In this document: piece after piece, positions 6,411 to 62,605 of the stretch | How the letters are laid out: each line of letters begins with the position of its first letter | Position numbering within the stretch: position 1 is the first letter of the stretch | Source of the DNA: an uncultured Gemmatimonas sp. | GTDB taxonomy: Bacteria > Gemmatimonadota > Gemmatimonadetes > Gemmatimonadales > GWC2-71-9 | DNA length: 64,000 nt | Assembly (NCBI GenBank): GCA_964439025.1 | Contig: CAYTMW010000009.1 | Span: 35,749-99,748 of the forward strand | Direction: 5' to 3' | Program-made: the position numbers and the translations under genes | Notes under the pieces: model-generated | What the model was told of the DNA's origin: nothing | The model's database searches: none | The model's input: the letters and a program-made list of their open reading frames with translations, nothing else

Positions 6411-7310
6411 ATGTCGTTTCGTCTGATGTCTCTCGCTGCCCTCTCCCTTGTGTCGGCCTTTCCGGCCGCTGCCCCGGCCCAGGAGCGGCAGCCCGTTACC
6501 CGCGCCAGAATCTATTTCGATGGCGACACCACCCTGATGCGGGACCGCATGCGCGCCATCACCCAGCGCAGGGCGCGTCTCGGTGTCGTCGTGGACATGC
6601 GCGCGAGCGACACCGACTCGATCGGCGCCACGCTGCAGACCGTCACCCCGGGGGGTCCGGCGGCCAAAGCCGGTCTCAAGACCGGCGATATCGTCACCCG
6701 CATCGACGGGAAGTCGCTGATCGCGACCGACAACACCAGGAGCGGCTCCGATGAATCGCTGCCTGGCGTCCGGCTGGTGGAATACGCCACCCAGCTCCAG
6801 CCTAACGACACCATCAGCGTCGAGTACCGGCGCAGCGGTTCGCGCCACACCGCCTCGCTGGTCACCGGTGATGAGCTCATCAGGATGGAAGTCTTTCCCG
6901 ACGGCGGCGACTTCAACTTCAAGGTGCCCGGTGGGATCACGATGGAACGGACTCCGTTTCGCGGCATGATCCGCGGCGAGCAGCTCCCCGGCGGCGCCAT
7001 GTCCTACTCCCTCGCCTTCGGAGGGGGGCCCCTTGCCGATCTCGAGCTCGCGCCGCTCAATGCCGACCTCGGCCAGTACTTCGCTACCACCGAAGGCGTG
7101 CTGGTGATCAACGTCCCGAAGGAGTCCACCCTGGGGCTCAAGGGGGGCGACGTCATCCTGGGCATCGATGGCCGCAAGGCGACGGGCCCCGGCAGCCTGC
7201 TGCGCATTCTCCGCAGCTATGACCCCGGGGACAGCTTCAAGCTCGACATCATGCGGAACAAGACCCGGACCACCATCACCGGAAAACTGGCAACAAAAAA
7301 CAGGGAGTAG
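6411..7310 (+). CDS. Secreted protein with two PDZ domains
   Basis: Signal peptide MSFRLMSLAALSLVSAFPAAAPAQ, preceded by GAGGAG. Two 'GGPAAKAGLKTGDI...IDG' / 'LGLKGGDVILGIDG' PDZ-type segments. The track ORF starts 15 nt earlier (6396). Confidence 0.8.
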   Translation: MSFRLMSLAALSLVSAFPAAAPAQERQPVTRARIYFDGDTTLMRDRMRAITQRRARLGVVVDMRASDTDSIGATLQTVTPGGPAAKAGLKTGDIVTRIDGKSLIATDNTRSGSDESLPGVRLVEYATQLQPNDTISVEYRRSGSRHTASLVTGDELIRMEVFPDGGDFNFKVPGGITMERTPFRGMIRGEQLPGGAMSYSLAFGGGPLADLELAPLNADLGQYFATTEGVLVINVPKESTLGLKGGDVILGIDGRKATGPGSLLRILRSYDPGDSFKLDIMRNKTRTTITGKLATKNRE

Positions 7311-7373
7311 GCAGGAGGCAGGAGGCAGGAGGCAGGAGGCAGGAGGGAAAAGCTTACCCACCTGCCTCCTCCC
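7311..7373 (+). terminator. (GCAGGAG)x5 heptamer array plus complementary CCTGCCTCCT arm; a hairpin followed by a T-rich tract
   Basis: Array at 7311-7345. AGGAGGCAGG pairs with CCTGCCTCCT (7361-7370). The downstream sequence is cttcgcttttcgctattcttct. Starts 1 nt after the PDZ gene stop. Confidence 0.45.
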
Positions 7374-7419
7374 ACTTCGCTTTTCGCTATTCTTCTCCCC
7401 ACCGTCCAATCGGAGTTCC

Positions 7420-8627: not shown

Positions 8628-8793
8628 TGTCACCCTGAGCGAAGCGAAGGGGCCGGTCCCTCCGCGGGCTCGGGGCGGACTGGCCTCCGGGGGCGCTCGA
8701 GTTCGCGGTACTCACTAGCGCCCCAGTCGTCAGCCCGCTCCCTGCGCCCGCTGGAGGTCGCGCCGACCATCGCGTGGGTCACCCGGGTGATGA
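8628..8793 (+). mobile_element. MITE-like foldback repeat, copy A (degraded right end)
   Basis: Aligns by eye with 22807-22990 and the reverse complement of 62440-62605. Shared left end (T)GTCACCCTGAGCGAAGCGAAGGGG and core CTCCGCGGGCTCGG..GCGG.CTGGCCTCCGGGGGCGCTCGAGTTCGCGGTACTCACTAGCGCCCC.GTCGTCAGCCCGCTCCCTGCGCCCGCTG. Confidence 0.6.
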
Positions 8794-8936
8794 GTGGGGC
8801 TCGCCATAGGGGACGTCGGGCCGTGAGGGCTCCGCGTGAAGTGATGAGGTGTGTTGGCCCGCAGGCCCCGTGGGCGAGTCCCACTCGAGCCCGGGGGTGA
8901 GACGGCAGTTCGTGTTCACCGCGCACGTTCACGCAG

Positions 8937-10309: not shown

Positions 10310-10346
10310 GCTAACGGCTAACCGCTAACAGCCGTTAGCCGTTAGC
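10310..10346 (-). terminator. Hairpin built from GCTAACN heptamers (13-bp perfect stem)
   Basis: GCTAACGGCTAAC (10310-10322) is the exact reverse complement of GTTAGCCGTTAGC (10334-10346), with an 11-nt loop. Lies 2 nt downstream of the permease stop and 8 nt upstream of the fabH start. Confidence 0.4.
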
Positions 10347-18610: not shown

Positions 18611-18626
18611 ATTACTCCGCTATAGG

Positions 18627-18650
18627 CTATCAGCTATCGGTCCGGCTATC
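18627..18650. repeat. Left arm of a 24-bp perfect inverted repeat (GCTATC-type heptamers)
   Basis: CTATCAGCTATCGGTCCGGCTATC is the exact reverse complement of 19035-19058. Pairing extends to 18619 / 19066 with one mismatch. Confidence 0.9.
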
Positions 18651-18688
18651 AGACGGAACCTACAAAGGAGCCCGGCTGGCGCAAGGAA

Positions 18689-19055
18689 ATGGCCGCTGTG
18701 GCGTTGGGATGGGTACCGGAGCGGTGCGCGGGGGCGAGGAAGATCTATCCGGTGACGCGGACGTTTCCATCTGATGAACGATTCGGTCTGACGATGTAAT
18801 GTCGGCGAGCCGCGGTCTCAATCATGGCGAATCTCGCAAGAAGGCTGCGGCCGCAATGGGGATAGGGAATTACGCCGCTTCGTCAACATCGCTCTCGGAT
18901 CTGCGGCGGAGTCGGACGCACATCTCACTCTCGCAAGTGATCTGGCGATGGCCCCGGCGGATCAGCTGACCCCGATTCAAGATGAGCTCGGGTCAATCCG
19001 CAGCATGCTCGCCCGCCTCGCTCAGAAGCTGTCCGATAGCCGGACCGATAGCTGA
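18689..19055 (+). pseudogene. Four-helix-bundle protein (23S rRNA intervening-sequence protein family) pseudogene
   Basis: Conceptual translation carries ..IYPVTRTFPSDERFGLTM*CRRAAVSIMANLA then, after a 1-nt shift, EGCGRNGDRELRRFVNIALGSAAESDAHLTLASDL... In-frame TAA at 18797-18799. Frameshift near 18838. Confidence 0.65.
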
Positions 19056-19058
19056 TAG
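19035..19058. repeat. Right arm of the 24-bp perfect inverted repeat; part of a GATAGCC array (19035-19078)
   Basis: GATAGCCGGACCGATAGCTGATAG. It overlaps the last codons and stop of the pseudogene. Confidence 0.9.
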
Positions 19059-19080
19059 CCGATAGCCGATCGCTATCCGG

Positions 19081-19491
19081 TCAATGCTGCATCCCCTCCT
19101 GTGCCAACGCCGACGCCGACAGCGGCACCCGCACCAGCGAGCCGCCATCGACCGCAATCTCGAAGGCGTACGTGCCGGGCCGGGGAAACGGCACATCGAA
19201 CACGAGCACCGCGCCCGCCTCGATCTCTGTCACCCCCGGCGGCGGCGGCCCGAAGTGCACCATCCCCTCGCCCCCGATCAGCTCCGCTCCCTGGTCGTCC
19301 ACGAAGCGGATACGGATCGGGTGATCGCCGACTTCGGAGCGGCGTCCCCGCACCCGCAGCACCAGGTGGGTGCGCGGATGCACCGCGGGGAACGCAGCCA
19401 CCCAGACGTGCTGGAAGATGCCCAGCACGGAGAGCTTCCCGTGCTGGTCGATCAGCGCGTAATCCGCGAGCACCGCGAAGTCGACCTGCAC
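19081..19491 (-). CDS. Hypothetical protein
   Basis: 136-aa ORF starting 1 nt after the cyclophilin gene on the same strand. Composition is plausible for coding. No motif recognised. Confidence 0.6.
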   Translation of the reverse strand: MQVDFAVLADYALIDQHGKLSVLGIFQHVWVAAFPAVHPRTHLVLRVRGRRSEVGDHPIRIRFVDDQGAELIGGEGMVHFGPPPPGVTEIEAGAVLVFDVPFPRPGTYAFEIAVDGGSLVRVPLSASALAQEGMQH

Positions 19492-19492
19492 C

Positions 19493-19939
19493 TCAAGACA
19501 CGCGAATTGATTTGATCTCGTCGTCCTTCTGAAGGGTGTTGACCACGTCCATCCCCTCCGTCACCTGCCCGAACACGGTGTGCTTCCGGTCGAGGTGCGG
19601 CTGGGGCGCGTGACAGATAAAAAACTGGCTCCCCCCGGTGTCCTTCCCCGCGTGCGCCATCGACAGGGTCCCGGCCACATGGCGGTGGGTGTTGAGATGC
19701 GTCTCGCACTTGATCTTGTAGCCGGGCCCGCCGGTGCCGACCCGGGGATCCTTCGGATTCCTCGAGAGGGGGTCGCCTCCCTGGACCATGAATTCCCCGA
19801 TGACCCGGTGGAATCGGGTGCCGTCGTAGAACTCCGCGTTGGCGAGCTTCTCGAAGTTTGCGACGGTGCCCGGCACTTCAGTGTCGTACAGCTCGGCCGT
19901 GAGGGTGCCTCGGCTCGTTTCGATCGTAGCAGTTTTCAT
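19493..19939 (-). CDS. Peptidyl-prolyl cis-trans isomerase (cyclophilin type)
   Basis: Contains 'G..T.ELY....P.TV.NF..L......YDG..FHRVI..FM.QGGDP' and 'G.L.MA.AG.DT.GSQFFI'. Confidence 0.92.
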
Positions 19940-19946
19940 GAGAGGA

Positions 19947-19999
19947 GGGGTTGGGGGTTGGGGGTTGGGGGTTGGGGGCTGGGGGTTGGGGGTTGGGGG
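19947..19999 (+). repeat. (GGGGGTT)x8 heptamer array (one CT variant); (CCCCCAA)n on the coding strand of the flanking genes
   Basis: Read directly from the sequence. Starts 8 nt upstream of the cyclophilin start codon and ends 13 nt downstream of the preceding gene's stop. Confidence 0.95.
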
Positions 20000-20011
20000 C
20001 GCGGGAGAATT

Positions 20012-22102
20012 CTAGTCGCCCGCGCCCGCGCCGGGAACGAGGGAGCGAAGCCGGGCGCTCCACTCCTCGGGATCGGCGGTCGGCGCGAGGCAGCGGTCGC
20101 CGGCGCACACAATCGCGCGCACCTCCCCCGCCAGCGGTACCAGCGCCCGGAGCGCCGGCGTCAGCCGCGCCGGATCGGCGCCGGGGAGGAGCCGGATCAC
20201 CACCTGCCGAGGCACGAAGAAGGCCAGCGCGCGGCGGTGCAGCTCGTCGGCGCCCGCGTCACCCTCCGGACCGGTGACGAGCAGGTGTACCGCCGGATGC
20301 ATGAGCCAGTCGGCAGCGAGCAGATATGCCGACGCGAAGATTCCCAGATGACTGCCCAGCCCGCCGAACGCGGTCACCAGCGCGCGATGGCGCTCTCGCC
20401 AGCGGTCCTCCCTGGTGTACTCGAAGAGCCGAGCCAGGGTGACGCCGGCCACCCCGTTGGAAGACGCGTTGGGACTGTCCTGAATCGGTTTTGCCGGAGC
20501 GGTGAGGAGACCCTCTCCGCCACGGTCGCGCGCGACATCGAGAAAGCCGCCGCGCTCTCCGTCCCAGTGATCCTCCCAGACCCGGTCCATCAACCCGGCG
20601 GCCCAGGTGAGCCAGCGGGTATGGCCGGTGACCTCGAAGGCATTGAGCGCCGAGGCGGCGCATTGCACCGGATCGTCGAGCAGGCCGGCCGCCCCGTCGG
20701 GGAGATGGGCGACGCGATCGCCCGGACCCTGCCCGCGCCGCACCTGTTCCAGCGCGTCGAGCCCGTGACGGACCGCCGTCTGGGAGCCGACCGCCGGCCC
20801 AGCACGAAGCAGCGCCCCCGCGAGCATCGCATTCCAGTTGGAATACGCCGTCGGATCGACGAAGGGCGCGGGGCGCTCGAGCCGCGCGGCCCGGAGGCGC
20901 ACCTCGATGCGCATCAGCATCGATTGCACCACAGCGAGGGCGAGATCGAATCGGCGCGCGAGCTCCTCGGGCGTGGCTGCGCGGAACAGCACGTTTCGGG
21001 TCGGGTCGTGGGGCATCCGGCCATGGGTTCCCACTCCGTACCGCGCGATGGCCAGCTCGTATTCGGCCTCGGAGAGGGCGGCGCGAATCTCCTCCGCGCT
21101 CCAGGTGAAGTAACTGCCGTCGTCCCCGGGGCCGCGATCGGCGTCCTGGCTCGCGCCAAATCCGCCGCCGTCGCGGGCCAGCACCTCACCGATCCAGCGC
21201 ACGACCTCACCAGCGGCATCGAGCCAGTCGGCACGCCGGAAGAGCGCACCCGCGGCCCCGAATACCGTCAGAAGCTCCGCGTTGTCGGAGGCCATCTTTT
21301 CGAAATGGGGAATGATCCACCGCTCGTCCACGCTGTAGCGATGGAATCCGCCGCCGAGGAGGTCCCGGAAGCCGCCGTTGGCCATACCGTCGAGCGTACG
21401 CTCGATGGCTGCGCGAAGCGTTGCCTCCGGCGCATCGCACCAGCGATGCAGGAGGAACATGAGCGTGGCAGGATGGGGAAACTTGGGTGAGAGGCCGAAT
21501 CCCCCGTGCACTCGGTCGGCGGCGGCGAGGATTCGGTGACCGGCGTCGGCGATCGCCGGACTGCTCACCTCACCGGGGGCGGTCTCGTCGAGGTACTCGG
21601 TCAGCGCCTCGCGCAACGCGCTCGCCTGCCGGGCGACGGTCGCGCGCTCGGTGCGCCAGACTTCCTCCACCCGCTCGAGGATCTGGAGGAATGAGGGGCG
21701 TCCGTGCGCCGGCTCGGGAGGGAAGTAGGTGCCTCCGAAAAACAGCTCGGCATCGGGGGTCAGAAACCCGGTGAGCGGCCAGCCGCCCTGCCGGGTAATC
21801 GCCTGCACCGCGCGCTGATAGCGCGTGTCCACGTCGGGGCGCTCGTCCCGATCCACCTTCACACAGACGAAATGCGCGTTGAGATACTCGGCGAGCGCCG
21901 GGTTCTCATAGGATTCTTCGTCCATCACGTGGCACCAGTGGCACCAGACCGCGCCGATATCCAGCAGGACGGGACGGTCGGTTTCCCTGGCCCGCTCGAA
22001 CGGCTCCGGCCCCCAGGCGTCCCACCACACCGGCTGGTGCGCCGCGCTGCGAAGATAGGCCGAGGGCGCCTCGCCCAGACGGTTGGTGCCCATGCGGCGC
22101 AA
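20012..22102 (-). CDS. Thioredoxin-domain (DUF255/YyaL-type) protein with N-acylglucosamine-2-epimerase-like alpha/alpha domain
   Basis: Contains 'W..WG.E.F..A.....P.LLDIGA.WCHWCHVM..ESYE......LN..FV.VKVDR.ERPD.D..Y'. 696 aa. Confidence 0.85.
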   Translation of the reverse strand: MRRMGTNRLGEAPSAYLRSAAHQPVWWDAWGPEPFERARETDRPVLLDIGAVWCHWCHVMDEESYENPALAEYLNAHFVCVKVDRDERPDVDTRYQRAVQAITRQGGWPLTGFLTPDAELFFGGTYFPPEPAHGRPSFLQILERVEEVWRTERATVARQASALREALTEYLDETAPGEVSSPAIADAGHRILAAADRVHGGFGLSPKFPHPATLMFLLHRWCDAPEATLRAAIERTLDGMANGGFRDLLGGGFHRYSVDERWIIPHFEKMASDNAELLTVFGAAGALFRRADWLDAAGEVVRWIGEVLARDGGGFGASQDADRGPGDDGSYFTWSAEEIRAALSEAEYELAIARYGVGTHGRMPHDPTRNVLFRAATPEELARRFDLALAVVQSMLMRIEVRLRAARLERPAPFVDPTAYSNWNAMLAGALLRAGPAVGSQTAVRHGLDALEQVRRGQGPGDRVAHLPDGAAGLLDDPVQCAASALNAFEVTGHTRWLTWAAGLMDRVWEDHWDGERGGFLDVARDRGGEGLLTAPAKPIQDSPNASSNGVAGVTLARLFEYTREDRWRERHRALVTAFGGLGSHLGIFASAYLLAADWLMHPAVHLLVTGPEGDAGADELHRRALAFFVPRQVVIRLLPGADPARLTPALRALVPLAGEVRAIVCAGDRCLAPTADPEEWSARLRSLVPGAGAGD

Positions 22103-22120
22103 AGCTAGTAGAATTGGCGG

Positions 22121-22774
22121 ATGGACGAGATGGAGCCGCTCCTGGAAGAAGCGATCCGCGCCCTCTCCGCCGCCTTCGCGACGGATCGACTGTCACTCGA
22201 CCAGTTCGAGTCCCGCCTGGTGCTGGTGCGCCAGGCCCCCAACCGCGCCACACTCGACGCGATCCTCGCCGACCTGGTGCCCTCGGAAGAATTCACCATC
22301 CCCACCGGACTCGTGGCGGCGGCGGATCACACCGGTGGGGCTGGGCACCATGAGCTCATTCCGGTCGAGCCGGCGGAGCTGCTGCGGATCAAAACGGTCA
22401 TGGGCTCTTCCAAACGGGCCGGCTCCTGGACGGTCCCGCTCCGCCTCGAGCTCAAGGTGGTTCTTGGAGAGCTCACCATCGACTTGCGCGATGCGGTCTT
22501 CTGCTCCGACGTGCTGGACGTCGACGTAAACGTGGTGCTCGGCAGCCTGACCCTGATTGTCCCCGCCGGCACCCAGGTCGAGAACGAAAGCGAGGAGAAA
22601 TTCAGCAGCTCGAGTCATTCGGTGCGCTCGACCAAGGGCCTTGCCCGGATCGGGCTCCTGGTCCGCATCACCGGCCAGGTCAAGTGGAGCAGCCTCGAGA
22701 TCAAGGAGAAGCGGCCCACGGGAGAAGGACCCCAGATGCCGCGATGGATGAAGATGCTGGGGGCGGGGGAGTGA
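22121..22774 (+). CDS. DUF1707 + LiaF-like C-terminal domain protein
   Basis: N-terminus 'DRLSLDQFESRL......A..RA.LDAILADL'. C-terminal beta-rich 'VLGELTIDLRDA...DV.VNVVLGSLTLIVP.G' is LiaF-like. Family call from memory. Confidence 0.6.
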   Translation: MDEMEPLLEEAIRALSAAFATDRLSLDQFESRLVLVRQAPNRATLDAILADLVPSEEFTIPTGLVAAADHTGGAGHHELIPVEPAELLRIKTVMGSSKRAGSWTVPLRLELKVVLGELTIDLRDAVFCSDVLDVDVNVVLGSLTLIVPAGTQVENESEEKFSSSSHSVRSTKGLARIGLLVRITGQVKWSSLEIKEKRPTGEGPQMPRWMKMLGAGE

Positions 22775-22798
22775 GCGGTGAGCGGTGAGCGGTGAGCG
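22771..22798. repeat. (GTGAGCG)x4 heptamer array
   Basis: Read directly from the sequence. The first unit contains the TGA stop (22772-22774) of the upstream gene. It abuts MITE copy B. Confidence 0.95.
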
Positions 22799-22806
22799 GG
22801 AACACC

Positions 22807-22990
22807 GTGTCACGCTGAGCGCAGCGAAGCCGAGGCTCACGTCTCTCCGCGGGCTCGGGAGCGGGCTGGCCTCCGGGGGCGCTCGAGTTCGCTATGCTCA
22901 CTAGCGCCCCCGTCATCAACCCGCTCCCTGCGCCCGCTGACAATCCCGGGTTGTCCACGCTTCGGTCGCTGCGCTCTTTCAGTGTGACAC
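22807..22990 (+). mobile_element. MITE-like foldback repeat, copy B (most complete, long terminal inverted repeats)
   Basis: Left end GTGTCACGCTGAGCGCAGCGAAGCCGAGG. Reverse complement of the right end GTGTCACACTGAAAGAGCGCAGCGACCGAAGCGTGG. Internal nested stems GGGAGCGGGCTG/CAaCCCGCTCCC and GGGGGCGCT/AGCGCCCCC. Confidence 0.65.
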
Positions 22991-23017
22991 CAGCACCCAG
23001 CATCCAGCATCCAGCAA
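22990..23017. repeat. (CCAGCAY)x4 heptamer array
   Basis: Read directly from the sequence. Lies between the right end of MITE B and the nth stop codon (23018-23020). Confidence 0.9.
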
Positions 23018-23650
23018 CTACACGAGGGAGCTCGGACACACCTGATTCAAGACACACTCCCCGCAGCGCGGCCTCCGCGCGATGCACACCCGCCGTCCAT
23101 GCCAGATCAGCAAGTGAGAAAACAGCGCCCACTCTTCTCGCGGCACCAGCGCCATCAGATCTTGTTCGATTTTTTCCGGGGTCGTCTGGCGGGTTAGGCC
23201 GAGGAGCGTCGAGAGCCGGGCCACGTGAGTATCCACGGTGACCCCCTCGTTGAGCCCGTAGGCGTTGCCCAGGATGACGTTGGCCGTCTTCCGGCCGACC
23301 CCGGGCAGCGCCTGCAGCGCATCCATGGTCTTCGGGGCCAGACCGCCATGGGATGCGGTAAGCGCCTGCGCCATTCCGATCAGACTCTTTGCCTTGTTGC
23401 GGAAGAATCCGGTGGAGCGGATCAGCTCCTCGACATCCTCCTGGCGGGCCTTCGCCAGCGCGGCCGACGTCGGATAGCGGGAGAACACCGCCGGGGTCAC
23501 CAGGTTCACCCTGACGTCGGTGCACTGCGCGGAGAGGATCGTGGCGACCAGGAGCTCGAAGGGGGTGCGGTGGTTGAGCTCGCAGTGGGCGTCGGGATAC
23601 GCCTGCTTGAGCAGTGCGATGACCCTCGCGGTCCGCTCCCGTTTTCTCAT
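23018..23650 (-). CDS. nth: Endonuclease III (DNA glycosylase/AP lyase)
   Basis: Contains '[17 protein letters not shown]', HhH '[11 protein letters not shown]', 'VDTHV.R', and an Fe-S cluster C-x6-C-x2-C-x5-C at the C-terminus. Confidence 0.93.
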
Positions 23651-25377
23651 ACGCCCCGCCGCCCCCGGGCGAACTGCAGGAACTCCTCGGCCGATCTGGT
23701 GTTCAGCACATCCGCCCTGGTGAGCCCGCCTTTCCGCGCGATCCCCACTCCGAATGGCATGTTGCCGATACCGGCGCGGCTGTGGGCATCGGAGCCGATG
23801 GAAATCATGACCCCGAGCTCGCGCGCCCGGCCAACCACCCGCCAGTCCAAGTCGAGCCGGTGGGGATCGGCGTTGATCTCGATGGCAACCCGATTCGCCG
23901 CGGCCTTCCGGAAGACCTGTTCGAGATCGATCGCGTACGGATCGCGGGACAGGAGCAGCCGGCCGGTGGGGTGGCCCAGAATGGTGAGATAGGGGCTGTC
24001 GAGGGCCCGGAGCACCCGCGCCGTCATTTCGGTCTCGCTCATGGCGAATCGAGAGTGGATCGATCCGATGACGAAGTCGAACCCGGCCAGGACCTCATCG
24101 TCGTAGTCCAGGCGTCCGTCGGCCAGGATATCCGATTCGATCCCCTTGAGGACCCGGATACCGGTGAGGCGCGCGTTCACCTGGTCGATCTCGGCCCACT
24201 GCTGGTGGAGTTTGTCCACCGAGAGGCCGCCGGCATAGGCTGCCGCCTTGCTGTGATCGGTGAGACCCACGTAGGTGTACCCCGCGTCCCGGCACGCCGT
24301 GGCGAGCTCCTCGATTTCGAGCGTCCCGTCGGAGTAGCTGGTGTGGCAGTGCAGAAAGCCGGCGAGGTCGGACTCCACCAGCAGCGCCGGCAGCGGACCC
24401 GCCGCCGCGCGGGCCACCTCGTCGCTTCCTTCGCGGAGCTCGGGAGGGATTTCGGCGAGCCCAAGCGCGCGATAGAGCGACGCTTCGTCCGGCGTCGGGA
24501 CAAACTCGCTGCCGCGCCAGAGCGCCGCGGCGGTAAAAGCCATCCCGCGCGCGGCGGCATGGGCGGTGAGGCGCTCGAGGTGGGCATCGCTTCCAGTGGC
24601 CTGAACCAGAACGGCGCCGACATTCGGCGGCGGAGTGACTACGATGCGGGCCGCCATGTCGCCGGGGGTCCTGAGCGTCACCCGCCGCTCGTCCTCGCCG
24701 CCGACCTCCTCCATTCCCGGGAAGTGCGCGAGGGCGCGGAAGATCTCGGCGGCGGGCGACTCGGAAACCACCACGTGCACGAGCTCGCGTACCACCTCGC
24801 AGCGCCTCCTGACTTCCCCCGCGACGATGGCGTCGGTTACGCCCGGCACGCGGGCGAGGGCGACGCGCAAGAGCTCCGCCTCTTCGGCAGCGTGATGGGC
24901 GAGCCGGAGCCCGACCACGCGTCGCTTCATGGCGATGCCCTTGAGTATGCTCTCCACCGTCTTCGGCCCGAATCCCGGCAGCTTGCCGAGCCGCCCATCG
25001 CGCGCCGCGGCCTCGAGATCCGCCAGCGATTCGATGCCAAGCTTCGCGTGGATGGCCTTGACGCGCGACGCGCCGAGCCCGGAGATACCGTGCATCTCGA
25101 GGAGACCAGCCGGCACCTCCCGCCGCAGGTCTTCCAGCAACACGCATTGCCCTGCCTCGATCAGCTCCTTCACGATGGAGAGGGTGGCCGGACCGACTCC
25201 CTTGGTGGCCTTGAGTGTACCGTCGGCGAGCGCGGCCGCCGGCTCGACGGCCAGTCCGCGAATTGCTTTCGCCACGATGCGGAAAGCGCGGATTCGGAAA
25301 GGATTCTCTTCGCGGAATTCCAGGTGGGCGGCGATCTGCTCCAGGACCCTCGCGATTGCCGTCCGATCCATGCTCAT
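23647..25377 (-). CDS. polX: Family X DNA polymerase with C-terminal PHP phosphoesterase domain (PolX)
   Basis: N-terminus '[13 protein letters not shown]' with HhH motifs ([16 protein letters not shown]). PHP domain 'HCHTSYSDG....E....A...[10 protein letters not shown]'. Start at the ATG overlapping the upstream stop (ATGA). Confidence 0.88.
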
Positions 25378-26027
25378 CGAGCCTCCTCCACACGCCACGC
25401 GAGCTCGAGCAGCTCTTCTTCGCCCTGGATGGAGGCGAGTCCCGCGGCCTCTCCCCCAGCAAGGGTCGGAGCGAACAGCGTGGAGCCATCGGTGCGCACG
25501 AGCCCGCGTGGCGCCTCGCCCGTCACCTCGGCAACCGTCAGTCCCTCCCGGCCGGGATGCAGTCCGAACACCGCGACGACCGAGCGCGCGCCGTCCCGCG
25601 GGGTAGTGAACCATCCGTCCAGCGGCTCGGGGGCGGCGCCCACGACCGGGAGGCCCCAGACCCGAAGCGAGGGAAGCTGAACGTATGCGGCGGCCGCTCG
25701 GGGGGTGCCCGCCGAGCGGTGATCCGTTCGAGCGGCCAGGAGTCGCGCAAGCAGAGAGTCGTCGATAGCCACCACCTGCTCGCCATCCAGCCAGAAGAGA
25801 TACGACGCGTGGATCAATGCGGCCAATCCCTGCACCTCTTCGCCGAACCCTTCGTCAGGCCGAAGCTCCTGCATCAGCAGGTTCACCTCGCGCACCAGCA
25901 GGAAGGCATCTCGATCGCTGGGATCGCGCCCCGCCTCGGCAATGGCCTGTCTGAGGGCGGGAAACCGCTCCGGCGCGAGCCCGCCGAAGACGAGAGAGAA
26001 CGGCGTGGGACGCTCCACGGTCATCAT
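25374..26027 (-). CDS. Hypothetical protein translationally coupled to PolX
   Basis: 217-aa ORF with ATGA overlaps at both ends. No motif recognised. Confidence 0.6.
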   Translation of the reverse strand: MMTVERPTPFSLVFGGLAPERFPALRQAIAEAGRDPSDRDAFLLVREVNLLMQELRPDEGFGEEVQGLAALIHASYLFWLDGEQVVAIDDSLLARLLAARTDHRSAGTPRAAAAYVQLPSLRVWGLPVVGAAPEPLDGWFTTPRDGARSVVAVFGLHPGREGLTVAEVTGEAPRGLVRTDGSTLFAPTLAGGEAAGLASIQGEEELLELAWRVEEAR

Positions 26028-26863
26028 GCTTCGCGCGGGAGAAAGTCATCCAGCGCGCGCGCGAAGAGCTCCGGCGATTCCACATAGGGGACGTGCCCGC
26101 ACTCCGGGAGCAGAACGAACCGGCCGCGCAGGAGCCCGGCGAGGTCGCGGGCGGTCTCCTCCGGAATCGGATCGTCGTCGCCATGCAGCACGAGCGCGGG
26201 AAGCTGGAGCGCGGGAATGCGCGGCCGGAGATCGAAGTCGCCCAGGCTCTCCCAGACCTCCTGCTGGGTGCGGCCGGTAATTCGGAATGGCGTCATCTCG
26301 CTCGCGCGCCGCCAATCGTGGAAATACCCGGCGACGGACAGCTCGAACATTTTCCGGCGATACTCCTCGGGGCTCCGCTCCCGCAGTCCGCCAGCCTGCA
26401 CCGCGGCGCGCTCCATCTGCACCTCAGGAGCGGCGTTCCGCGCCGCGAGCCGGCGTTCGAGCTCGCCGCGCGCGCCCCGCCAGACCGGCGCCGGCGACAC
26501 CAGGGCAAGACTCGCGACCTTGTCCGGGTGCTCGAGCGCGTAGAGCAGCGCCAGCAGGGCGCCCCACGAGTAGCCGGCGATGGAAAGGCGGGGGATGTCC
26601 CAGAGCGCGCGGAGCGCCTCGAGATCCTCGACCTGTTCAGGCCAACCCACCGGAACATCCCGTGCCACCGCCGAACGTCCCCCGCCGCGCTGATCGTAGT
26701 AGATCAGCAGCCGCCGGTGCGCCACCCGGTCGAATCCGGGAAGGAGATAGTCATGATGCGCGCCGGGCCCCCCGTGCAGCACCACGGTGGGAGGACCCGC
26801 GCCCTTCCGTCGCTCGAACAGCGTCACGCCGCGGACCGTGCGTTGGCTCGTGCTCTCAGGCAT
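26024..26863 (-). CDS. Alpha/beta hydrolase (proline iminopeptidase-like)
   Basis: Contains 'VVLHGGPGA', nucleophile elbow 'GYSWGA', and a C-terminal '..GH.P..E.P' His region. Confidence 0.8.
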   Translation of the reverse strand: MPESTSQRTVRGVTLFERRKGAGPPTVVLHGGPGAHHDYLLPGFDRVAHRRLLIYYDQRGGGRSAVARDVPVGWPEQVEDLEALRALWDIPRLSIAGYSWGALLALLYALEHPDKVASLALVSPAPVWRGARGELERRLAARNAAPEVQMERAAVQAGGLRERSPEEYRRKMFELSVAGYFHDWRRASEMTPFRITGRTQQEVWESLGDFDLRPRIPALQLPALVLHGDDDPIPEETARDLAGLLRGRFVLLPECGHVPYVESPELFARALDDFLPREA

Positions 26864-26893
26864 GACAGGCTCCGAGTGCGGCCACAGCGGGGA

Positions 26894-26938
26894 GCTAACA
26901 GCTAACCGCTAACTGCCGATAGCCGATAGCCAATAGCG
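26894..26938. repeat. Composite heptamer array (GCTAACN)x3 + GCC + (GATAGCC)x2 + AATAGCG
   Basis: Read directly from the sequence. Fills most of the spacer between the GAF gene stop (26941) and the hydrolase start (26863). Confidence 0.9.
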
Positions 26939-26940
26939 CT

Positions 26941-51957: not shown

Positions 51958-52010
51958 GGGGTTGGGGGTTGGGGATTGGGGAACTCCCCCAGCCCCCAAC
52001 CCCCAAACCC
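51958..52010. terminator. Long imperfect G-run/C-run hairpin built from GGGGTT-type units between convergent genes
   Basis: GGGGTTGGGGGTTGGGGATTGGGG-AACT-CCCCCAGCCCCCAACCCCCAAACCC. Sits between the S41 stop (51955) and the M61 stop (52010-52012). Confidence 0.45.
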
Positions 52011-53833
52011 TACCCCCCCGTCGTCCCCGTCAATATCCCCCGCCTGATCCTCGCCGCCTTCGGGCTCGCCGTCGCATCCCACAAGAGCCGCGTGTCCACG
52101 ATGAGCTCCCGGCGTACCTCCATCTGCACCGTACGCTCGGCATCGTTCCGGCGGACCACGACGGGAATCGTGCTGCCGACGGCGTCGGCGTAGCGCGTCC
52201 GAAATTGCAGCGCGAAGTTTTCGTCTTTGACCTCGACCTCTCCGACCTTGAGGATCTGATCACCGGGCTCGATGCCGGCGTCGAAGGCCGCGCTGCCGCG
52301 CGTCACCGCGGTCACGAAGACGCGTAAGCTGTCGGACAGCGTGTTGACGCCCAGTCGCAGCTCGCGCGTGCTGTCGGCGACTTGCCTGATCCCGCCGAGG
52401 GCGCCCACCGTGGCCCAGGGAAACGGCTCCCTGCCATCGATATACTTCGCGGCGAACTCGGTGAACGGGCGCCCCCCCGCCGCGGCGGTGACCGCCGCCC
52501 ACCACTCCGCGGTGGTGAAGCCTTTCCCCTTCTTGTACGTGCTCTGGTAGAGACCCCGCATCACGTCGTCGAGCGAGCGGCGATTGTCGCTCCCGTCACG
52601 AATCAGGATGTCCAGCAGCAGTCCCGCGAGAGACCCTTTGTCGTAGTAGATGTCGCCGGTCCCATCGGTCGGATCGATCCAGCTGGTGAGCGACGCATCT
52701 TCGAGGGCGATCGGCACCGTCTGGTCGGTATGCTCCCGTTTGCCCTCGGTGACGCTCAGGAATACCGTCGAATCGAGAATGCCCCCGCGCACCAGTGCGA
52801 GATCGGCGTAGTAATCGGTGATCCCCTCGCTCACCCAGAGCAGCGTGGTCGGCTGCGGCTGGTCATATCGGTACGGCACCATCTCGGACGGGCGGAGCCG
52901 CTTCACGTTCCAGGCGTGGAAGATCTCGTGCGCAGTGATCGAGGCCAGCAGCGCGGTACCGATGAACTGCGGATTGTAGATGCCGACGTGCGAGTTCTGG
53001 TGCTCGAGGGCGCTCCCGCCGGCGAACGACGGCTCGAAGATCAGCATCGTGGTGTAGTGCTTCCACGGCGTCTCGCCGAAGATCTTGGACTGGGGCGGAA
53101 CCATCGCCTGAATCTGCTCCCAGAGCACTCGGCGCGCGGCGGTCCGGAGCTCTCCCGACGGGTAGCTCGCAAGGCGGTGCCAGACCCCCTCGACCTGGGC
53201 GCTGTCCACATCGAGGCGGCCGATAAAAAATGGCATGTCGACCAGGTCGTGATAGTTCGTGGCGCGGTAGCGCCCCGCGCCGCCGTCCCGGTCGAGACCG
53301 GTGACGATCTGCCAACCCGGTGCGGTGGTGACGCTCACCCGCGCGGGGAAATCCATCCCCTGGCCCTCAGGATATGGAAAGACGTTGGTGCCGTTGATCA
53401 GGAGAAAATCGGGTTTCGCCCAGGCCATCGCGTTGTCGAGGGTGTCGGCCAGGAAATCGAACTCCACCCGGACCGGGCCGGCCGCCACCGGCCGCACCCG
53501 CCAGGTGTCGTAGTCGGTCTTGTCCCAAACGAGCGGCCGCCCACCGCTGGTCGCCGAAAAACTGGAGACCTTCCGGGCATAGTTGTTGAGCTCGTACGCG
53601 CCCGGCGTCCACGCAGGGAGGGAAAGCAGTACCGGCCCCGCGCGCGGGACGTCGAACTCCATTCCGATGCGCACGCTGCGGCGCTCGGCGTTCGCCGAGT
53701 CGAAGATGAGCTCGTAGCGCAGATTCGTTGCGACGCCCGGAGCCCGCGCGGGACGCGGCTGCGCCATGAGCGGGACAGCGCAGCCAATCAGGAAAACCGC
53801 GGACGCGGCGAGAGAACGAAAGCGGCCTGACAC
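52010..53833 (-). CDS. M61-family metallopeptidase with C-terminal PDZ domain
   Basis: Signal/lipobox-like MSGRFRSLAASAVFLIGCA. Contains 'HEIFHAWNVKRLRP' (HExxH..WN) and a C-terminal PDZ 'AA.DAGI.PGD.I..V'. Confidence 0.88.
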   Translation of the reverse strand: MSGRFRSLAASAVFLIGCAVPLMAQPRPARAPGVATNLRYELIFDSANAERRSVRIGMEFDVPRAGPVLLSLPAWTPGAYELNNYARKVSSFSATSGGRPLVWDKTDYDTWRVRPVAAGPVRVEFDFLADTLDNAMAWAKPDFLLINGTNVFPYPEGQGMDFPARVSVTTAPGWQIVTGLDRDGGAGRYRATNYHDLVDMPFFIGRLDVDSAQVEGVWHRLASYPSGELRTAARRVLWEQIQAMVPPQSKIFGETPWKHYTTMLIFEPSFAGGSALEHQNSHVGIYNPQFIGTALLASITAHEIFHAWNVKRLRPSEMVPYRYDQPQPTTLLWVSEGITDYYADLALVRGGILDSTVFLSVTEGKREHTDQTVPIALEDASLTSWIDPTDGTGDIYYDKGSLAGLLLDILIRDGSDNRRSLDDVMRGLYQSTYKKGKGFTTAEWWAAVTAAAGGRPFTEFAAKYIDGREPFPWATVGALGGIRQVADSTRELRLGVNTLSDSLRVFVTAVTRGSAAFDAGIEPGDQILKVGEVEVKDENFALQFRTRYADAVGSTIPVVVRRNDAERTVQMEVRRELIVDTRLLWDATASPKAARIRRGILTGTTGG

Positions 53834-57877: not shown

Positions 57878-59284
57878 ATGATCCGCCGTCCCCTTGTGCT
57901 ACCCCTCGCCCTCCTGGCATGGACGCTGGTGCTTCCCCTCTCGGCACAGAACCGGAGAGCCGCGGCGCAGGCCAACCCCATCCAGCGCGAGTACCAGGCG
58001 GCCGCCGACCGGATCATCGCCGCGGCAACCGCCGACAGCGCGGCATGGAACAAGCTGGCCGAACTCACCGACGGCTTCGGCCATCGGCTGAGCGGCAGCG
58101 AGGCGCTGGAGCAGGCCATCGACTGGGTCATCGCCCGGATGAAGTCCGAAGGATTGGAGAACGTCCGCGGGGAGCCGGTGATGGTGCCCCGCTGGGTCCG
58201 GGGCCACGAGCAGGCTGAGCTACTGGAGCCCCGCTACGCCAAGCTGTCGATGCTCGGCCTTGGGCAAAGCGTCGGCACGCGCCGCGGCGGGATCCAGGCG
58301 GAGGTGCTGGTCGTCTCGAGCTTCGACGAGCTCAAGGCGCACGCGGCCGAGGCGCGGGGAAGAATCGTGCTGTTCGACGTGCCGTTTACGAATTATGGCC
58401 AGACGGTGCGGTATCGCGGGACCGGCGCGGTCGAGGCGGCAAAGGTCGGCGCGGTGGCGATGCTGCTCCGGTCGGTCGGACCGTTCGGGATGCGGACGCC
58501 GCACACCGGCTCGATGCAGCCGTACGATTCGACGGTGACGCGGATTCCCGCCGCGGCGATCACGATGGAAGACGCCGCGCTGCTGCACCGCATGCAGCAG
58601 CGCGGCCAGAAGATCGTCGTCCGGCTCGAGATGGAAGCCCAGATGCTTCCCGATTCGCCCTCGCGCAATGTGGTGAGCGAGCTCACCGGGCGGGAGAAGC
58701 CGGCGGAGGTGGTGGTCTTCGGCGGCCACATTGATTCCTGGGACGTGGGCACCGGAGCGATGGATGACGCCGGCGGTGTGGTCATCGCCTGGGAGGCCGT
58801 ACGCCTGCTGCAGAAGCTCGGGCTCCGCCCCCGGCGCACCATCCGCGTCGTCGGATGGACCAACGAGGAGAACGGCGGGCGCGGCGGCCAAGCCTATCGC
58901 GACGCGCACCGGAGCGAGCTCGTCGGCCACGTGGCGGCGATCGAGTCCGACGGCGGGACATTCAAGTTCCGCGGCTTCGGCTTCACCGGCAGCGATTCCG
59001 CCTACGCGATGGTCCGGCAGATCGCCAAGCTGCTCCGGCCGCTGGGCGGGGATTCGGTGACCGTGGGAGGCGGCGGCGCCGACATCGGGCCGATCATGGC
59101 GCTCGGCGTCCCCGGCCTCTCGCACAACGTGGATGGCACCCGATACTTCTGGTACCATCACACCGACGCCGACACCGTGGACAAGATCGACCCCCGGGAG
59201 CTGGCCGAGAACGTGGCGGCGATGGCGATCATGGCGTATGTACTGGCTGACCTGCCCAGTCCGCTACCACGTATTAGGCAGTAG
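57878..59284 (+). CDS. M28-family aminopeptidase, secreted
   Basis: Start at MIRRPLVLPLALLAWTLVLPLSAQ. Contains 'FGHRLSGSEALE.AI.W' and 'VVFGGHIDSWD.GTGA.DD..G'. Confidence 0.85.
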   Translation: MIRRPLVLPLALLAWTLVLPLSAQNRRAAAQANPIQREYQAAADRIIAAATADSAAWNKLAELTDGFGHRLSGSEALEQAIDWVIARMKSEGLENVRGEPVMVPRWVRGHEQAELLEPRYAKLSMLGLGQSVGTRRGGIQAEVLVVSSFDELKAHAAEARGRIVLFDVPFTNYGQTVRYRGTGAVEAAKVGAVAMLLRSVGPFGMRTPHTGSMQPYDSTVTRIPAAAITMEDAALLHRMQQRGQKIVVRLEMEAQMLPDSPSRNVVSELTGREKPAEVVVFGGHIDSWDVGTGAMDDAGGVVIAWEAVRLLQKLGLRPRRTIRVVGWTNEENGGRGGQAYRDAHRSELVGHVAAIESDGGTFKFRGFGFTGSDSAYAMVRQIAKLLRPLGGDSVTVGGGGADIGPIMALGVPGLSHNVDGTRYFWYHHTDADTVDKIDPRELAENVAAMAIMAYVLADLPSPLPRIRQ

Positions 59285-59341
59285 ACAGTAGGCAGTAGGC
59301 AAGAGCTGTTCACTACTGCCAATTGCCCACTCCCTATTGCC
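59277..59341. repeat. (GGCAGTA-like)x4 array and inverted (TANTGCC-like) period-7 array; the central 8-bp stem may act as a terminator
   Basis: GGCAGTA GACAGTA GGCAGTA GGCAAGA at 59277-59304. TACTGCC AATTGCC CACTCCC TATTGCC at 59314-59341. The M28 TAG stop lies inside the first array. Confidence 0.85.
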
Positions 59342-62439: not shown

Positions 62440-62605
62440 GTGTCACGCTGAGGGGCCCACCCGTATCTGCAGCGGGCGTAGCGAGCGGGCTGACGACGGG
62501 GGTGCTAGTGAGTACCGCGAACTCGAGCGCCCCCGGAGGCCAGCCCGCTCCCGAGCCCGCGGAGAGACACGGGGATCCGCCCCTTCGCTTCGCTCAGGGT
62601 GACAA
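62440..62605 (-). mobile_element. MITE-like foldback repeat, copy C (inverted orientation)
   Basis: Its reverse complement aligns with copies A and B over the whole core. It fills the convergent spacer between the permease stop (62434) and the TldD/PmbA stop (62613). Confidence 0.6.

What the first reader, a model, noticed from the sequence alone, without database searches (positions are those of the whole stretch)
22771..23017. A convergent spacer built entirely of repeats: heptamer array - MITE - different heptamer array
Seen: the 243 nt between the stop of the LiaF-like gene (TGA 22772-22774) and the stop of nth (23018-23020) consist of three parts:
- (GTGAGCG)x4 at 22771-22798
- MITE copy B at 22807-22990
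- (CCAGCAY)x4 at 22990-23017

The upstream gene's stop codon lies inside the first heptamer unit. The last unit ends 1 nt before the nth stop.

MITE copy A has a degenerate array of the same GTGAACG/CGTTCAC family on its right side (8907-8941).

Inference: either the MITE inserts preferentially into, or together with, heptamer arrays, or the arrays are generated at its insertion sites. This points to a mechanistic link between the two repeat classes.
Basis: partly seen in the sequence, partly recalled or inferred. Interest (0 to 1): 0.55.

Follow-up and report, generated by a model that had tools for sequence, protein, structure and literature searches.

The report
Mobile element inserted between older heptamer arrays
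The spacer really is two 7-base tandem arrays flanking a small mobile hairpin element, but related genomes show both arrays were already there and abutting before the element landed between them, and such arrays sit at gene ends across this Gemmatimonas-like genome, so the element did not make them.

Summary
Observation confirmed. The spacer holds (GTGAGCG)x4 at 22771-22798, an 8-nt linker, a 183-nt palindromic element at 22807-22989, and (CCAGCAY)x4 at 22990-23017. These fill all 243 nt between the two stop codons.

Interpretation only partly supported.
- **Arrays are genome-wide.** The window has 18 period-7 arrays, against 2.9 in shuffles. They sit in spacers that contain a gene 3' end (27/46), rarely in divergent spacers (2/22).
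- **Arrays pre-date the element.** Seven orthologous spacers from relatives (65-94% protein identity) lack the element but carry the arrays. L018 reads (GTGAGCG)x3.7-GGACCGAC-(CCAGCAT)x4. A second locus (L002 versus L029, L027, L031) gives the same result.
- **No general enrichment.** 5 of 10 independent copies share a spacer with an array, which is the background rate.
- **One residual link.** All five of those spacers carry a GTGARCG-family array. The element abuts that array's conserved cap (GGGAACTGCC), and both empty sites place the insertion at the linker between arrays. This suggests a target preference, but the test is post hoc on a small sample.

Arrays change very fast. Copy number differs between 99% identical contigs. 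Both arms of array hairpins switch unit together between relatives 95-97% identical.

The parts
22121..22774 (+). DUF1707 / LiaF-like_C gene (217 aa). Its TGA stop (22772-22774) lies inside the first heptamer unit.
   Evidence: ORF list. Orthologues P0001-P0120 carry PF08044 and PF09922.
22771..22798 (+). Heptamer array (GTGAGCG)x4. This is the ancestral left array of the spacer.
   Evidence: TRF gives 100% matches. A same-family array sits at the same place in L018, L024, L025 and L026, all without the MITE.
22799..22806 (+). Cap/linker GGAACACC (GGGAACACC with the last G of the array). This is the conserved end of GTGARCG arrays, and the insertion point lies just 3' of it.
   Evidence: Empty sites read GGGACCGACC (L018), GGGACCTGCC (L026) and GGGACGATTC (L024). 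The same cap abuts the elements in L002, L005, L006 and L001.
22807..22989 (+). MITE-like palindromic element, copy B (183 nt). It has imperfect terminal inverted repeats, GTGTCACGCTGAGCG... and ...CAGTGTGACA. It is a lineage-specific insertion.
   Evidence: Alignment of copies. Fold of -134.7 kcal/mol, z=-4.4. Absent from 7 orthologous spacers. No Rfam family.
22841..22941 (+). Conserved ~100-nt core hairpin of the element. It is the part shared by all copies, and its apical loop carries a CGCTCAC-like heptamer.
   Evidence: blastn gives 89-94% identity to 10 other copies. Sequences shown.
22990..23017 (+). Heptamer array (CCAGCAY)x4. This is the ancestral right array, and it abuts the nth stop codon.
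   Evidence: TRF. A same-family array is present in the MITE-free spacers of L018 and L024. A second CCAGCAT array lies at 40434-40466.
23018..23650 (-). nth (endonuclease III, 210 aa), convergent with the LiaF-like gene.
   Evidence: ORF list. Orthologues carry PF00730, PF00633 and PF10576.
8628..8785 (+). MITE-like element, copy A. The left terminus is TGTCACCCTGAGCG and the right terminus is degenerate. No heptamer array lies within 60 nt.
   Evidence: The orthologous copy is present in L003.
8775..8916 (+). Module X, a second palindromic element with similar GTCACCC...GGGTGAGAC termini. It is followed by the cap GGCAGTTCG and ~2 degenerate CGTTCAC units (8905-8941).
   Evidence: blastn finds copies in L003 and two in L001. 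Fold. Junctions.
62441..62604 (-). MITE-like element, copy C (164 nt). It has the cleanest terminal inverted repeats, sits in a convergent spacer, and has no flanking array.
7309..7375 (+). (AGGCAGG)x5.4 starting in the stop codon of the upstream gene, plus a complementary CCTGCCTCC, forming a hairpin. The orthologue in L003 has (GGGGAAG)n/(CTTCCCC)n instead.
   Evidence: z=-2.4.
10310..10346 (-). (GCTAACN)x3 + (NGTTAGC)x2.4, an inverted pair of arrays that fills a 46-nt spacer between tandem genes.
   Evidence: z=-6.1.
19947..19999 (+). (GGGGTTG)x7.6, 12 nt from a stop codon, single-armed and unstructured. Orthologues have (TCAGGGG)n.
51958..52018 (+). (GGGGTTG)x3.4 + (CCCCCAA)x4.7, a complementary pair of arrays filling a convergent spacer without any MITE.
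   Evidence: z=-3.6.
59275..59330 (+). (TAGGCAG)x3.9 overlapping a stop codon, plus a complementary CTACTGCC, forming a hairpin.
   Evidence: z=-4.9.
26893..26937 (-). (AGCTAAC)x3 + (GCCGATA)x3.3, 3 nt from a stop codon. Orthologues have (TCAGCCN)/(GGCTGAN) in L015 or (GCTAACS)/(GKTAGCC) in L018.

Best explanation
The 243-nt spacer is a composite of two unrelated layers.

**Layer 1: an old array-only spacer (shown).** It is about 60 nt long and made only of heptamer arrays. A GTGARCG-type array starts in the stop codon of the LiaF-like gene. A short linker (GGGAC...) follows. A second array runs up to the nth stop codon. Spacers of this kind are the norm in this Gemmatimonas-like lineage. Period-7 arrays occupy about half of all spacers that contain a gene 3' end and are nearly absent from divergent, promoter-side spacers.

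**How the arrays change.**
- Unit number changes between near-identical contigs (shown). Replication slippage is the inferred cause.
- Unit sequence turns over between close relatives (shown).
- The arrays are often arranged as two complementary arms that change together (shown).
- Slippage homogenising units within an arm, and hairpin-templated correction between arms, are inferred.
- A role as U-tract-less 3'-end hairpins is inferred, not shown.

**Layer 2: a recent insertion (shown).** A 183-nt non-coding palindromic mobile element with GTCAC...GTGAC termini is present only in the window's lineage. It landed exactly at the linker between the two pre-existing arrays, with no detectable target-site duplication.

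**Why the two co-occur.** Both classes live in promoter-free 3' spacers. In addition, and more tentatively, the element tends to land next to the conserved cap of GTGARCG arrays. The element neither carries nor creates the arrays.
For: **Empty sites at locus B**
- L018/L019: TAA-GCG GTGAGCG ATGAGCG GTGAGCG-GGACCGAC-CCAGCAT CCAGCTC CCAGCAT TCAGCAG-CTA, 60 nt, no element.
- L024: (GTGAACG)x6.6 ... (CAGCAAC)x2.7.
- L025: (GGTGAAC)x8.6. L026: (GTGAACN)x4-GGGACCTGCC.
- L023, L015 and L020 have other unit families and also no element.

**Second locus**
- L002 has the core between (GTGAGCG)n and (CGCTCAC)n.
- L029/L030 read (GTGAGCG)2-GGAGACC-(CTYACCG)5 or 4.
- L027/L028 have (CGAAGAG)/(CTCGCTC), and L031 has (GTGAGAR)/(YTCTCAC). 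None has the core.

**Arrays are genome-wide**
- 18 period-7 arrays against 2.9 expected.
- 14-16 of the 18 lie in the ~9% of the window that is intergenic.
- By spacer class: convergent 11/16, tandem 16/30, divergent 2/22.

**No general enrichment near the element.** 5/10 element-bearing spacers have arrays, against 27/46 for other 3' spacers.

**Slippage**
- L013 and L014 are 99.0% identical over 3.7 kb. Their only gap is a 14-nt (2-unit) indel in the array.
- L029 and L030 are 99.8% identical over 6 kb. Their only gap is a 7-nt indel in the array.

**Concerted arm change**
- Spacer 7311: AGGCAGG/CCTGCCT in the window against GGGGAAG/CTTCCCC in L003.
- Spacers 10303, 26828 and 18611 behave the same way.
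- L031 has GTGAGAG/CTCTCAC and L002 has GTGAGCG/CGCTCAC, with flanks 95-97% identical.

**Mobility of the element**
- 3 copies in the window.
- 6 exact core matches on different contigs of one related metagenome-assembled genome.
- No copies in ~150 kb from other relatives.
Against: - The census is small and partly biased. There are 10 independent copies, and 7 were fetched because they contain the core.
- Window gene calls are my own codon-bias caller, although they match the tool's calls on orthologous loci.
- About half of the array spacers have no significant hairpin. No canonical terminators were found. The proposed 3'-end function is therefore only an inference.
- The family-specific bias toward GTGARCG arrays shows the co-occurrence is not purely a shared niche.
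- No transposase partner has been identified, and no target-site duplication is seen, so the transposition mechanism is unknown.
Confidence: 0.8

Rival explanations
1. Targeted insertion. The GTCAC-terminated elements (the core type and module X) recognise the cap or loop of GTGARCG-type array hairpins (GGGAACTGCC) and insert just 3' of it. IS1397/ISKpn1 and some IS110-family elements target REP palindromes in a comparable way. On this reading the link between the two repeat classes is a real mechanistic one, at the level of target choice.
For: - All 5 array-associated copies adjoin a GTGARCG-family array.
- 6 of 8 near-core arrays are of that family, against 15 of 65 elsewhere. Fisher p=0.006.
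- About 7 element ends share the same architecture of array, cap, then GTCAC terminus: B, L002, L005, L006, X in the window/L003, and two X copies in L001.
- The cap is present in empty sites: L026 GGGACCTGCC, L018 GGGACCGACC.
- Both filled-versus-empty comparisons place the insertion at the 8-10-nt linker of a 50-60-nt spacer.
- No copy interrupts an array.
- The element terminus (CTGAGCG) and its apical loop (CGCTCAC) resemble the array unit.
Against: - Half of the copies (A's left end, C, L001, L004, L007) have no array or cap at their ends.
- The bases preceding the termini share no common motif.
- The test is post hoc, with small n and biased sampling.
- Within the unbiased window alone the association is marginal: 2 of 3 GTGARCG arrays occupied against 1 of 15 others, p~0.06 by my own arithmetic.
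Confidence: 0.45
2. The element carries heptamer arrays as part of its termini, or induces them at its insertion sites, for example by repair or slippage at the junctions.
For: - In L002 the core is flanked by inverted GTGAGCG/CGCTCAC arrays that look like outer terminal repeats.
- The same cap-plus-array recurs at the ends of several copies.
- The IVP pseudogene insert at 18611-19080 has long flanking arrays, while the empty site in L020 has only GATAGCTATC.
Against: - Empty sites at both testable loci already carry the arrays and the cap.
- The left array at locus B is conserved down to 65% protein identity, in genomes where no element copy was seen in 20 kb of flank.
- 13 of the 18 array-bearing spacers tallied (window, L001-L007 and L013) have no element.
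- Copies A, C and L001 have no arrays.
Confidence: 0.05
3. Pure coincidence of niche. Arrays and elements are independent neutral occupants of promoter-free spacers, and no target preference exists.
For: - At least 6 of the 8 copies whose flanking genes could be called lie in convergent spacers.
- 11/16 convergent and 16/30 tandem spacers carry arrays anyway.
- In spacers made entirely of arrays, any tolerated insertion must be flanked by arrays.
Against: - It does not explain the restriction to one unit family.
- It does not explain the constant cap-to-terminus junction.
- It does not explain the central position of both dated insertions.
Confidence: 0.35

Closest known systems
Intergenic heptanucleotide SSRs: Xanthomonas GGGAATC and Nostoc GGGGA(C/T)T repeats (Rehm et al. 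2015, PMC4692102), and the general over-representation of heptamer SSRs noted there for Mrazek 2007
   Same: - Period-7 tandem arrays of 2-8 units.
- Strongly over-represented in intergenic DNA.
- Sometimes arranged as inverted pairs able to form stem-loops.
- Extensive length and sequence variation between related strains, with polymerase slippage proposed as the source.
   Different: - Here there is no single G-rich unit. At least 8 unit families occur: GTGARCG, CCAGCAY, GGGGTTG, GCTAACN, CCGATAG, AGGCAGG, CTTCCCC and TCAGCCN.
- The organism belongs to the Gemmatimonadales, for which I found no report.
- The arrays abut or overlap stop codons.
- Both arms of inverted pairs change unit in concert between close relatives.
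TAACTGA heptamer direct repeats of Beggiatoaceae, cyanobacteria and Bacteroidetes (MacGregor 2015, PMC4679880), and cyanobacterial STRR heptamers (Calothrix, cited in PMC4692102)
   Same: - Abundant intergenic heptamer arrays.
- Intergenic regions holding mixtures of different heptamer arrays.
- Relatives with shorter, repeat-free spacers.
   Different: - TAACTGA repeats sit mainly upstream of start codons. The arrays here sit at gene 3' ends and avoid divergent spacers.
- TAACTGA is one dominant unit. Here there are many units.
REP/BIME mosaic elements of enterobacteria and pseudomonads, and IS elements that target them (IS1397, ISKpn1, ISPpu9/10, IS621). Recalled from memory, not tested here.
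   Same: - Short palindromic modules combined in mosaics in extragenic 3' spaces.
- Hairpin-forming.
- No target-site duplication.
- Mobile elements that insert into pre-existing palindromic repeats rather than at random.
   Different: - No RAYT or IS partner has been identified.
- The landing pads here are tandem heptamer arrays, not single REP palindromes.
- Copy number and genome-wide distribution are unknown.
Bacterial MITEs that sit at gene 3' ends (for example Neisseria Correia elements and ERIC). From memory.
   Same: - Length of 150-190 nt.
- Terminal inverted repeats.
- Strongly folded and non-coding.
- Dispersed, with presence/absence polymorphism between relatives.
   Different: - No TA or other target duplication is detectable.
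- The ends are modular: inverted, direct or missing copies of the GTCACCCTGAGCGAAGCGAAGGG module.

Membership tests
MITE (non-autonomous TIR element) | Small (<~600 bp), non-coding, multi-copy and dispersed | tested here: met
   - Length of 164-183 nt.
- 3 copies in the window, 6 contigs of one related MAG, and 1 metagenome locus.
- The open frames across the element have no protein homologues.
MITE (non-autonomous TIR element) | Terminal inverted repeats | tested here: met
   - Copies B, C and L006 run TGTCACSCTGAGCG ... CTCAG(C/G)GTGACA.
- The feature is variable. L001 and L007 have direct copies of the module, and L002, L005 and L013 lack it.
MITE (non-autonomous TIR element) | Target-site duplication | tested here: inconclusive
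   - No shared flanking direct repeat in C, L006 or L001.
- At B an 'ACC' repeat is possible, but it cannot be resolved against an empty site that is ~85% identical.
MITE (non-autonomous TIR element) | Presence/absence polymorphism at orthologous sites | tested here: met
   - Locus B is filled in the window and empty in 7 relatives.
- Locus L002 is filled and empty in 3 distinct relatives.
MITE (non-autonomous TIR element) | A cognate autonomous IS with the same termini | not testable with these tools
   - The complete genome is not available.
- No plasmid or viral matches.
Heptanucleotide SSR / STRR-type intergenic arrays | Head-to-tail 7-nt units, >=2-3 copies, in excess over chance | tested here: met
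   - 18 arrays against a mean of 2.9 (maximum 6) in 40 shuffles.
- Period 7 is the most enriched period.
Heptanucleotide SSR / STRR-type intergenic arrays | Intergenic location | tested here: met
   - 14-16 of 18 arrays lie in ~9% of the sequence.
- There is one clear coding exception, at 39083-39117.
Heptanucleotide SSR / STRR-type intergenic arrays | Unit-number polymorphism between near-identical genomes (slippage) | tested here: met
   - L013 has 6.6 units and L014 has 4.6.
- L029 has 5 units and L030 has 4.
- Each of these indels is the only gap in a 99-99.8% identical alignment.
Intrinsic (Rho-independent) terminator | GC-rich hairpin followed by a U tract | tested here: not met
   - Consensus scan of 18-28 kb found 1 site against 4.2 expected, and none at the arrays.
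- Hairpins without U tracts are present in about half of the array spacers.
REP/BIME-like elements | A RAYT (Y1 HUH) transposase in the genome and hundreds of REP copies | not testable with these tools
   Only 64 kb of the genome is available. No such gene was looked for beyond the local context.
Known structured RNA (Rfam) | Match to a covariance model at the gathering score | tested here: not met
   - No hit in the window at gathering thresholds.
- Only chance-level miRNA-hairpin hits on the element.
- Nothing on module X.

The most novel reading that the evidence does not exclude
The heptamer arrays may not be passive slippage debris. They may be an actively maintained, lineage-wide 3'-end system of the Gemmatimonadales.

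**Observations that allow this reading**
- Every relative, down to 65% protein identity, keeps arrays at the same 3' spacers.
- The unit sequence is replaced wholesale between strains 95-97% identical.
- The replacement happens on both arms of a hairpin at complementary positions.
- The same replacement unit (GTGAGAG/CTCTCAC) appears at different loci in different assemblies.

**What could produce this**
- Hairpin-templated gene conversion, or a trans-acting factor that reads or writes 7-nt units.
- The array caps would then serve as specific landing pads for GTCAC-terminated mobile elements.
Probability: 0.15. Interest if true: 0.7.

Novelty: new member of a known kind. Interest (0 to 1): 0.4.

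Why it matters
It replaces an attractive but wrong causal story, that a MITE makes or carries heptamer arrays, with a dated order of events. The arrays came first and the element arrived later, at the junction between them.

It also documents, apparently for the first time in Gemmatimonadales, that 3' intergenic spacers are built largely of fast-evolving heptamer arrays. These arrays often form complementary hairpins, overlap stop codons and can alter protein C-termini.

If the cap-directed insertion bias holds genome-wide, this would be a new example of a mobile element that uses a simple-sequence structure as its landing pad. The arrays would also be useful strain-typing markers.

Tried and rejected
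- **Rfam.** The whole window at gathering thresholds, and the element and module X at permissive E-values, gave nothing meaningful. A known structured RNA is rejected.
- **Exact-protein look-up of nth.** Not on record, so the window's own genome is not in that collection.
- **Metagenome scan with a 20-mer of the core.** Only L013/L014 are true copies. The other 5 hits are chance matches in unrelated GC-rich DNA.
- **Collecting more copies through spurious ORFs.** A chimeric 196-aa query of the four open frames of the element gave no hit.
- **Viral contig scans for the core and for array+cap, and a plasmid BLAST.** No matches.
- **Literature.** No paper on heptamer arrays or MITEs in Gemmatimonadetes, and none holding the terminus sequence.
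- **P0123 look-up.** Not on record.
- **Canonical terminator and promoter scan.** Nothing at the arrays, so 'classical intrinsic terminator' is rejected as a label.
- **Stop codons in the sense-strand arrays.** I checked by eye whether they systematically provide stops in all frames. Only 3-4 of 10 do, so I dropped the idea.
- **The 'array' beside copy A.** I checked whether it is adjacent to the MITE. It is not. It belongs to the far end of module X.
Full report
**1. The observation**

Reading 22500-23300 and TRF confirm the description.
- The LiaF-like/DUF1707 gene (22121-22774; Pfam labels of its orthologues) ends with TGA at 22772-22774. That stop is bases 2-4 of the first of four perfect GTGAGCG units (22771-22798).
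- An 8-nt linker GGAACACC follows (22799-22806).
- Next is a 183-nt element running GTGTCAC...GTGTGACA (22807-22989).
- Then come CCAGCAC, CCAGCAT, CCAGCAT and CCAGCAA (22990-23017).
- The reverse-strand stop of nth (23018-23020) follows immediately.

So the spacer is made entirely of repeats.

The element is a genuine dispersed repeat. The window holds copies at 8628-~8785 (+) and 62441-62604 (-), with ~100-nt cores 90-92% identical to copy B. It folds into one long nested hairpin of -134.7 kcal/mol, z=-4.4. It matches no Rfam family.

It lies at the far end of a different palindromic element, module X (8775-8916), not next to copy A.

**2. Whose genome, and how common are the arrays**

A 22-mer of the core occurs only in Gemmatimonas/Gemmatimonadales MAGs. 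The window is 67% GC and 84-93% identical in DNA to those contigs.

Period 7 is the commonest tandem-repeat period in the window. There are 18 arrays, against a mean of 2.9 and a maximum of 6 in 40 dinucleotide shuffles. Periods 6 and 8 are near expectation.

I made my own codon-bias gene calls. They reproduce the lengths of the genes the tool calls on orthologous loci. With them, 14-16 of the 18 arrays fall in the ~9% of the window that is intergenic. About 10 lie within 12 nt of a stop codon or overlap one.

I pooled the window with five gene-called orthologous loci. Arrays are present in 11/16 convergent, 16/30 tandem and only 2/22 divergent spacers. They mark gene 3' ends. These loci are orthologous, so the counts are not independent.

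At least eight unit families occur.

About half of the array spacers consist of an array and its reverse complement, and fold far better than shuffles:

| Spacer | z-score |
|---|---|
| 10303 | -6.1 |
| 59270 | -4.9 |
| 51950 | -3.6 |
| L023 | -6.0 |

Others have no structure at all, for example 19940 and L018. No canonical hairpin-plus-U-tract terminators were found.

**3. The decisive test: empty sites**

I searched the LiaF-like protein and fetched the contigs of its orthologues. This gave seven distinct orthologous spacers of 42-100 nt. None contains the element.

| Locus | Protein identity | Spacer content |
|---|---|---|
| L018/L019 | 89% | TAA-GCG GTGAGCG ATGAGCG GTGAGCG-GGACCGAC-CCAGCAT CCAGCTC CCAGCAT TCAGCAG-CTA |
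| L024 | 88% | (GTGAACG)x6.6 ... (CAGCAAC)x2.7 |
| L025 | 79% | (GGTGAAC)x8.6 |
| L026 | 65% | (GTGAACN)x4-GGGACCTGCC |
| L023 | 94% (93% DNA) | (GTGAGAG)/(CTCTCAC) |
| L015 and L020 | 91% and 89% (92% DNA) | (GGGGAAS)/(CCCTTCC) |

L018/L019 has the same two array families as the window, directly abutting. L023, L015 and L020 are the closest relatives. They have switched to other units but are also empty.

The GTGARCG-plus-CCAGCAY state is therefore ancestral. The element is a recent insertion in the window's lineage, placed between the cap (GGGAACACC) and the first CCAGCA unit. No target-site duplication can be resolved.

**4. A second locus gives the same answer**

In L002 the core sits between (GTGAGCG)n-GGGAACTGCC and (CGCTCAC)n. 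The flanking flotillin gene has orthologues whose spacers are empty:
- L029/L030 read (GTGAGCG)2-GGAGACC-(CTYACCG)5 or 4.
- L027/L028 read (CGAAGAG)2.5-loop-(CTCGCTC).
- L031 reads (GTGAGAR)4-loop-(YTCTCAC)4.

Again the arrays pre-exist, here as a hairpin, and the core occupies the apex.

**5. Is there any statistical link?**

Ten independent copies are in hand: A (= L003), B, C, L001, L002, L004, L005, L006, L007 and L013 (= L014). At least six lie in convergent spacers.

Five share the spacer with a period-7 array: B, L002, L005, L006 and L013. That 50% is no more than the 27/46 (59%) of element-free 3' spacers.

A narrower association does appear.
- All five of those spacers carry a GTGARCG-family array.
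- 6 of 8 near-core arrays are of that family, against 15 of 65 elsewhere (Fisher p=0.006).
- In about seven element ends, including module X and its copies in L001, the architecture is the same: array, then cap GGGA(A/C)C..CC, then the GTCAC terminus.
- The cap also exists in empty sites (L026, L018).
- Both dated insertions hit the linker rather than an array.

This is compatible with a target preference for the cap or loop. But the test is post hoc, n is small, and seven loci were fetched because they contain the core. Within the window alone the association is marginal.

**6. Dynamics of the arrays**
- *Unit number.* L013 and L014 are 99.0% identical over 3.7 kb and differ by a single 14-nt indel in the array. 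L029 and L030 are 99.8% identical over 6 kb and differ by a single 7-nt indel in the array.
- *Unit sequence.* Between relatives about 92% identical, all seven comparable spacers keep arrays but with different units. In inverted pairs both arms change together.
- *Speed.* Between L031 and L002 (flanks 95-97% identical), GTGAGAG/CTCTCAC became GTGAGCG/CGCTCAC at complementary positions in every unit.

Slippage explains the change in unit number. The concerted change of both arms needs an extra step. I infer, but have not shown, that this step is hairpin-templated correction or replacement by recombination.

**7. Comparison with what is known**

Over-representation of intergenic heptamer SSRs, their inverted arrangements and their strain-to-strain variability are described for Xanthomonas and Nostoc (PMC4692102). 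Comparable repeats are described for Beggiatoaceae, cyanobacteria and Bacteroidetes (PMC4679880). I found nothing for Gemmatimonadetes.

Insertion of mobile elements into pre-existing palindromic repeats is known for REP/BIME-targeting IS elements. That statement is from my memory and was not tested here.

The finding is thus a new member of known kinds, with one lead worth following: cap-directed insertion and concerted arm turnover.

**8. Verdict**
- Observation: confirmed.
- 'Arrays generated by, or carried with, the MITE': refuted at the two loci that could be tested.
- 'MITE prefers array-bearing spacers': plausible only for one array family, and unproven.
- Overall interest: moderate to low for the stated claim. 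The lineage-wide array system that surrounds it is more interesting.

Noticed in passing
window 18611-19080 (compare L015 6175-6730, L020 4796-4815, L026 6317-6961): A degraded 23S-rRNA-IVP-family gene (PF05635 in the orthologues; the window copy has an in-frame stop) sits between inverted heptamer arrays, (GCTATCN)n on the left and (NGATAGC)n on the right. L015 has the gene between (GCCTTCA)6 and (TGAAGGC)2.5. L020/L021 have only a 20-nt spacer containing the mini-palindrome GATAGCTATC. This is another cargo at the apex of an array hairpin.
   Followed up: partly
window 39083-39117: A (CTTCCCC)x5 heptamer array lies inside a 489-aa decarboxylase-like ORF on the minus strand. It reads in frame as ...VGKGEGGRGRGEAL... 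It is the only clear coding array in the window.
   Followed up: partly
window 8775-8916; L001 3108-3240 and 4965-5090; L003 2591-2727: Module X is a second ~140-nt palindromic dispersed element, with copies 88-91% identical and GTCACCCGGG...CCCGGGGGTGAGAC termini resembling those of the MITE. It has no Rfam match. It is bordered by the same GGGAACTGCC cap and GTGAGCG-type units.
   Followed up: partly
L002 1880-1941 versus L031 1340-1376: Arrays overlap the 3' end of the flotillin gene and rewrite its C-terminus (...GLGGEEGKGKGEGER* versus ...GLGEGEK*) between genomes with 99% identical proteins. Array turnover therefore changes protein tails.
   Followed up: partly
window 41960-41985: An octamer array (GAGGCAAG)x3.2 with a complementary CTTTGCCTC at the other end of a 65-nt convergent spacer forms a hairpin. 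It shows the same architecture with period 8.
   Followed up: no
L015 7620-7870 versus L020 5685-5732 and window 19947-20011: A ~245-nt insertion lies directly after the (TCAGGGG)n array in L015. It is absent from L020/L021 and the window, and may be another small mobile element landing next to an array.
   Followed up: no
L013 1410-1455 versus L014; L029 11270-11305 versus L030: Array copy number is polymorphic (6.6 versus 4.6 units, and 5 versus 4 units). In each pair this indel is the only gap between 99.0-99.8% identical contigs from different samples.
   Followed up: yes
window 168-1190: Four diverged copies of a 42-nt motif, spaced ~195-396 nt apart, lie inside the first (truncated) ORF. 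This looks like a repeat-domain protein and is unrelated to the finding.
   Followed up: no
window 18000-28000: No sigma-70-like promoter matches, and fewer terminator-like sites than in shuffles (1 against 4.2). Canonical E. coli-type signals are essentially absent from this stretch.
   Followed up: no
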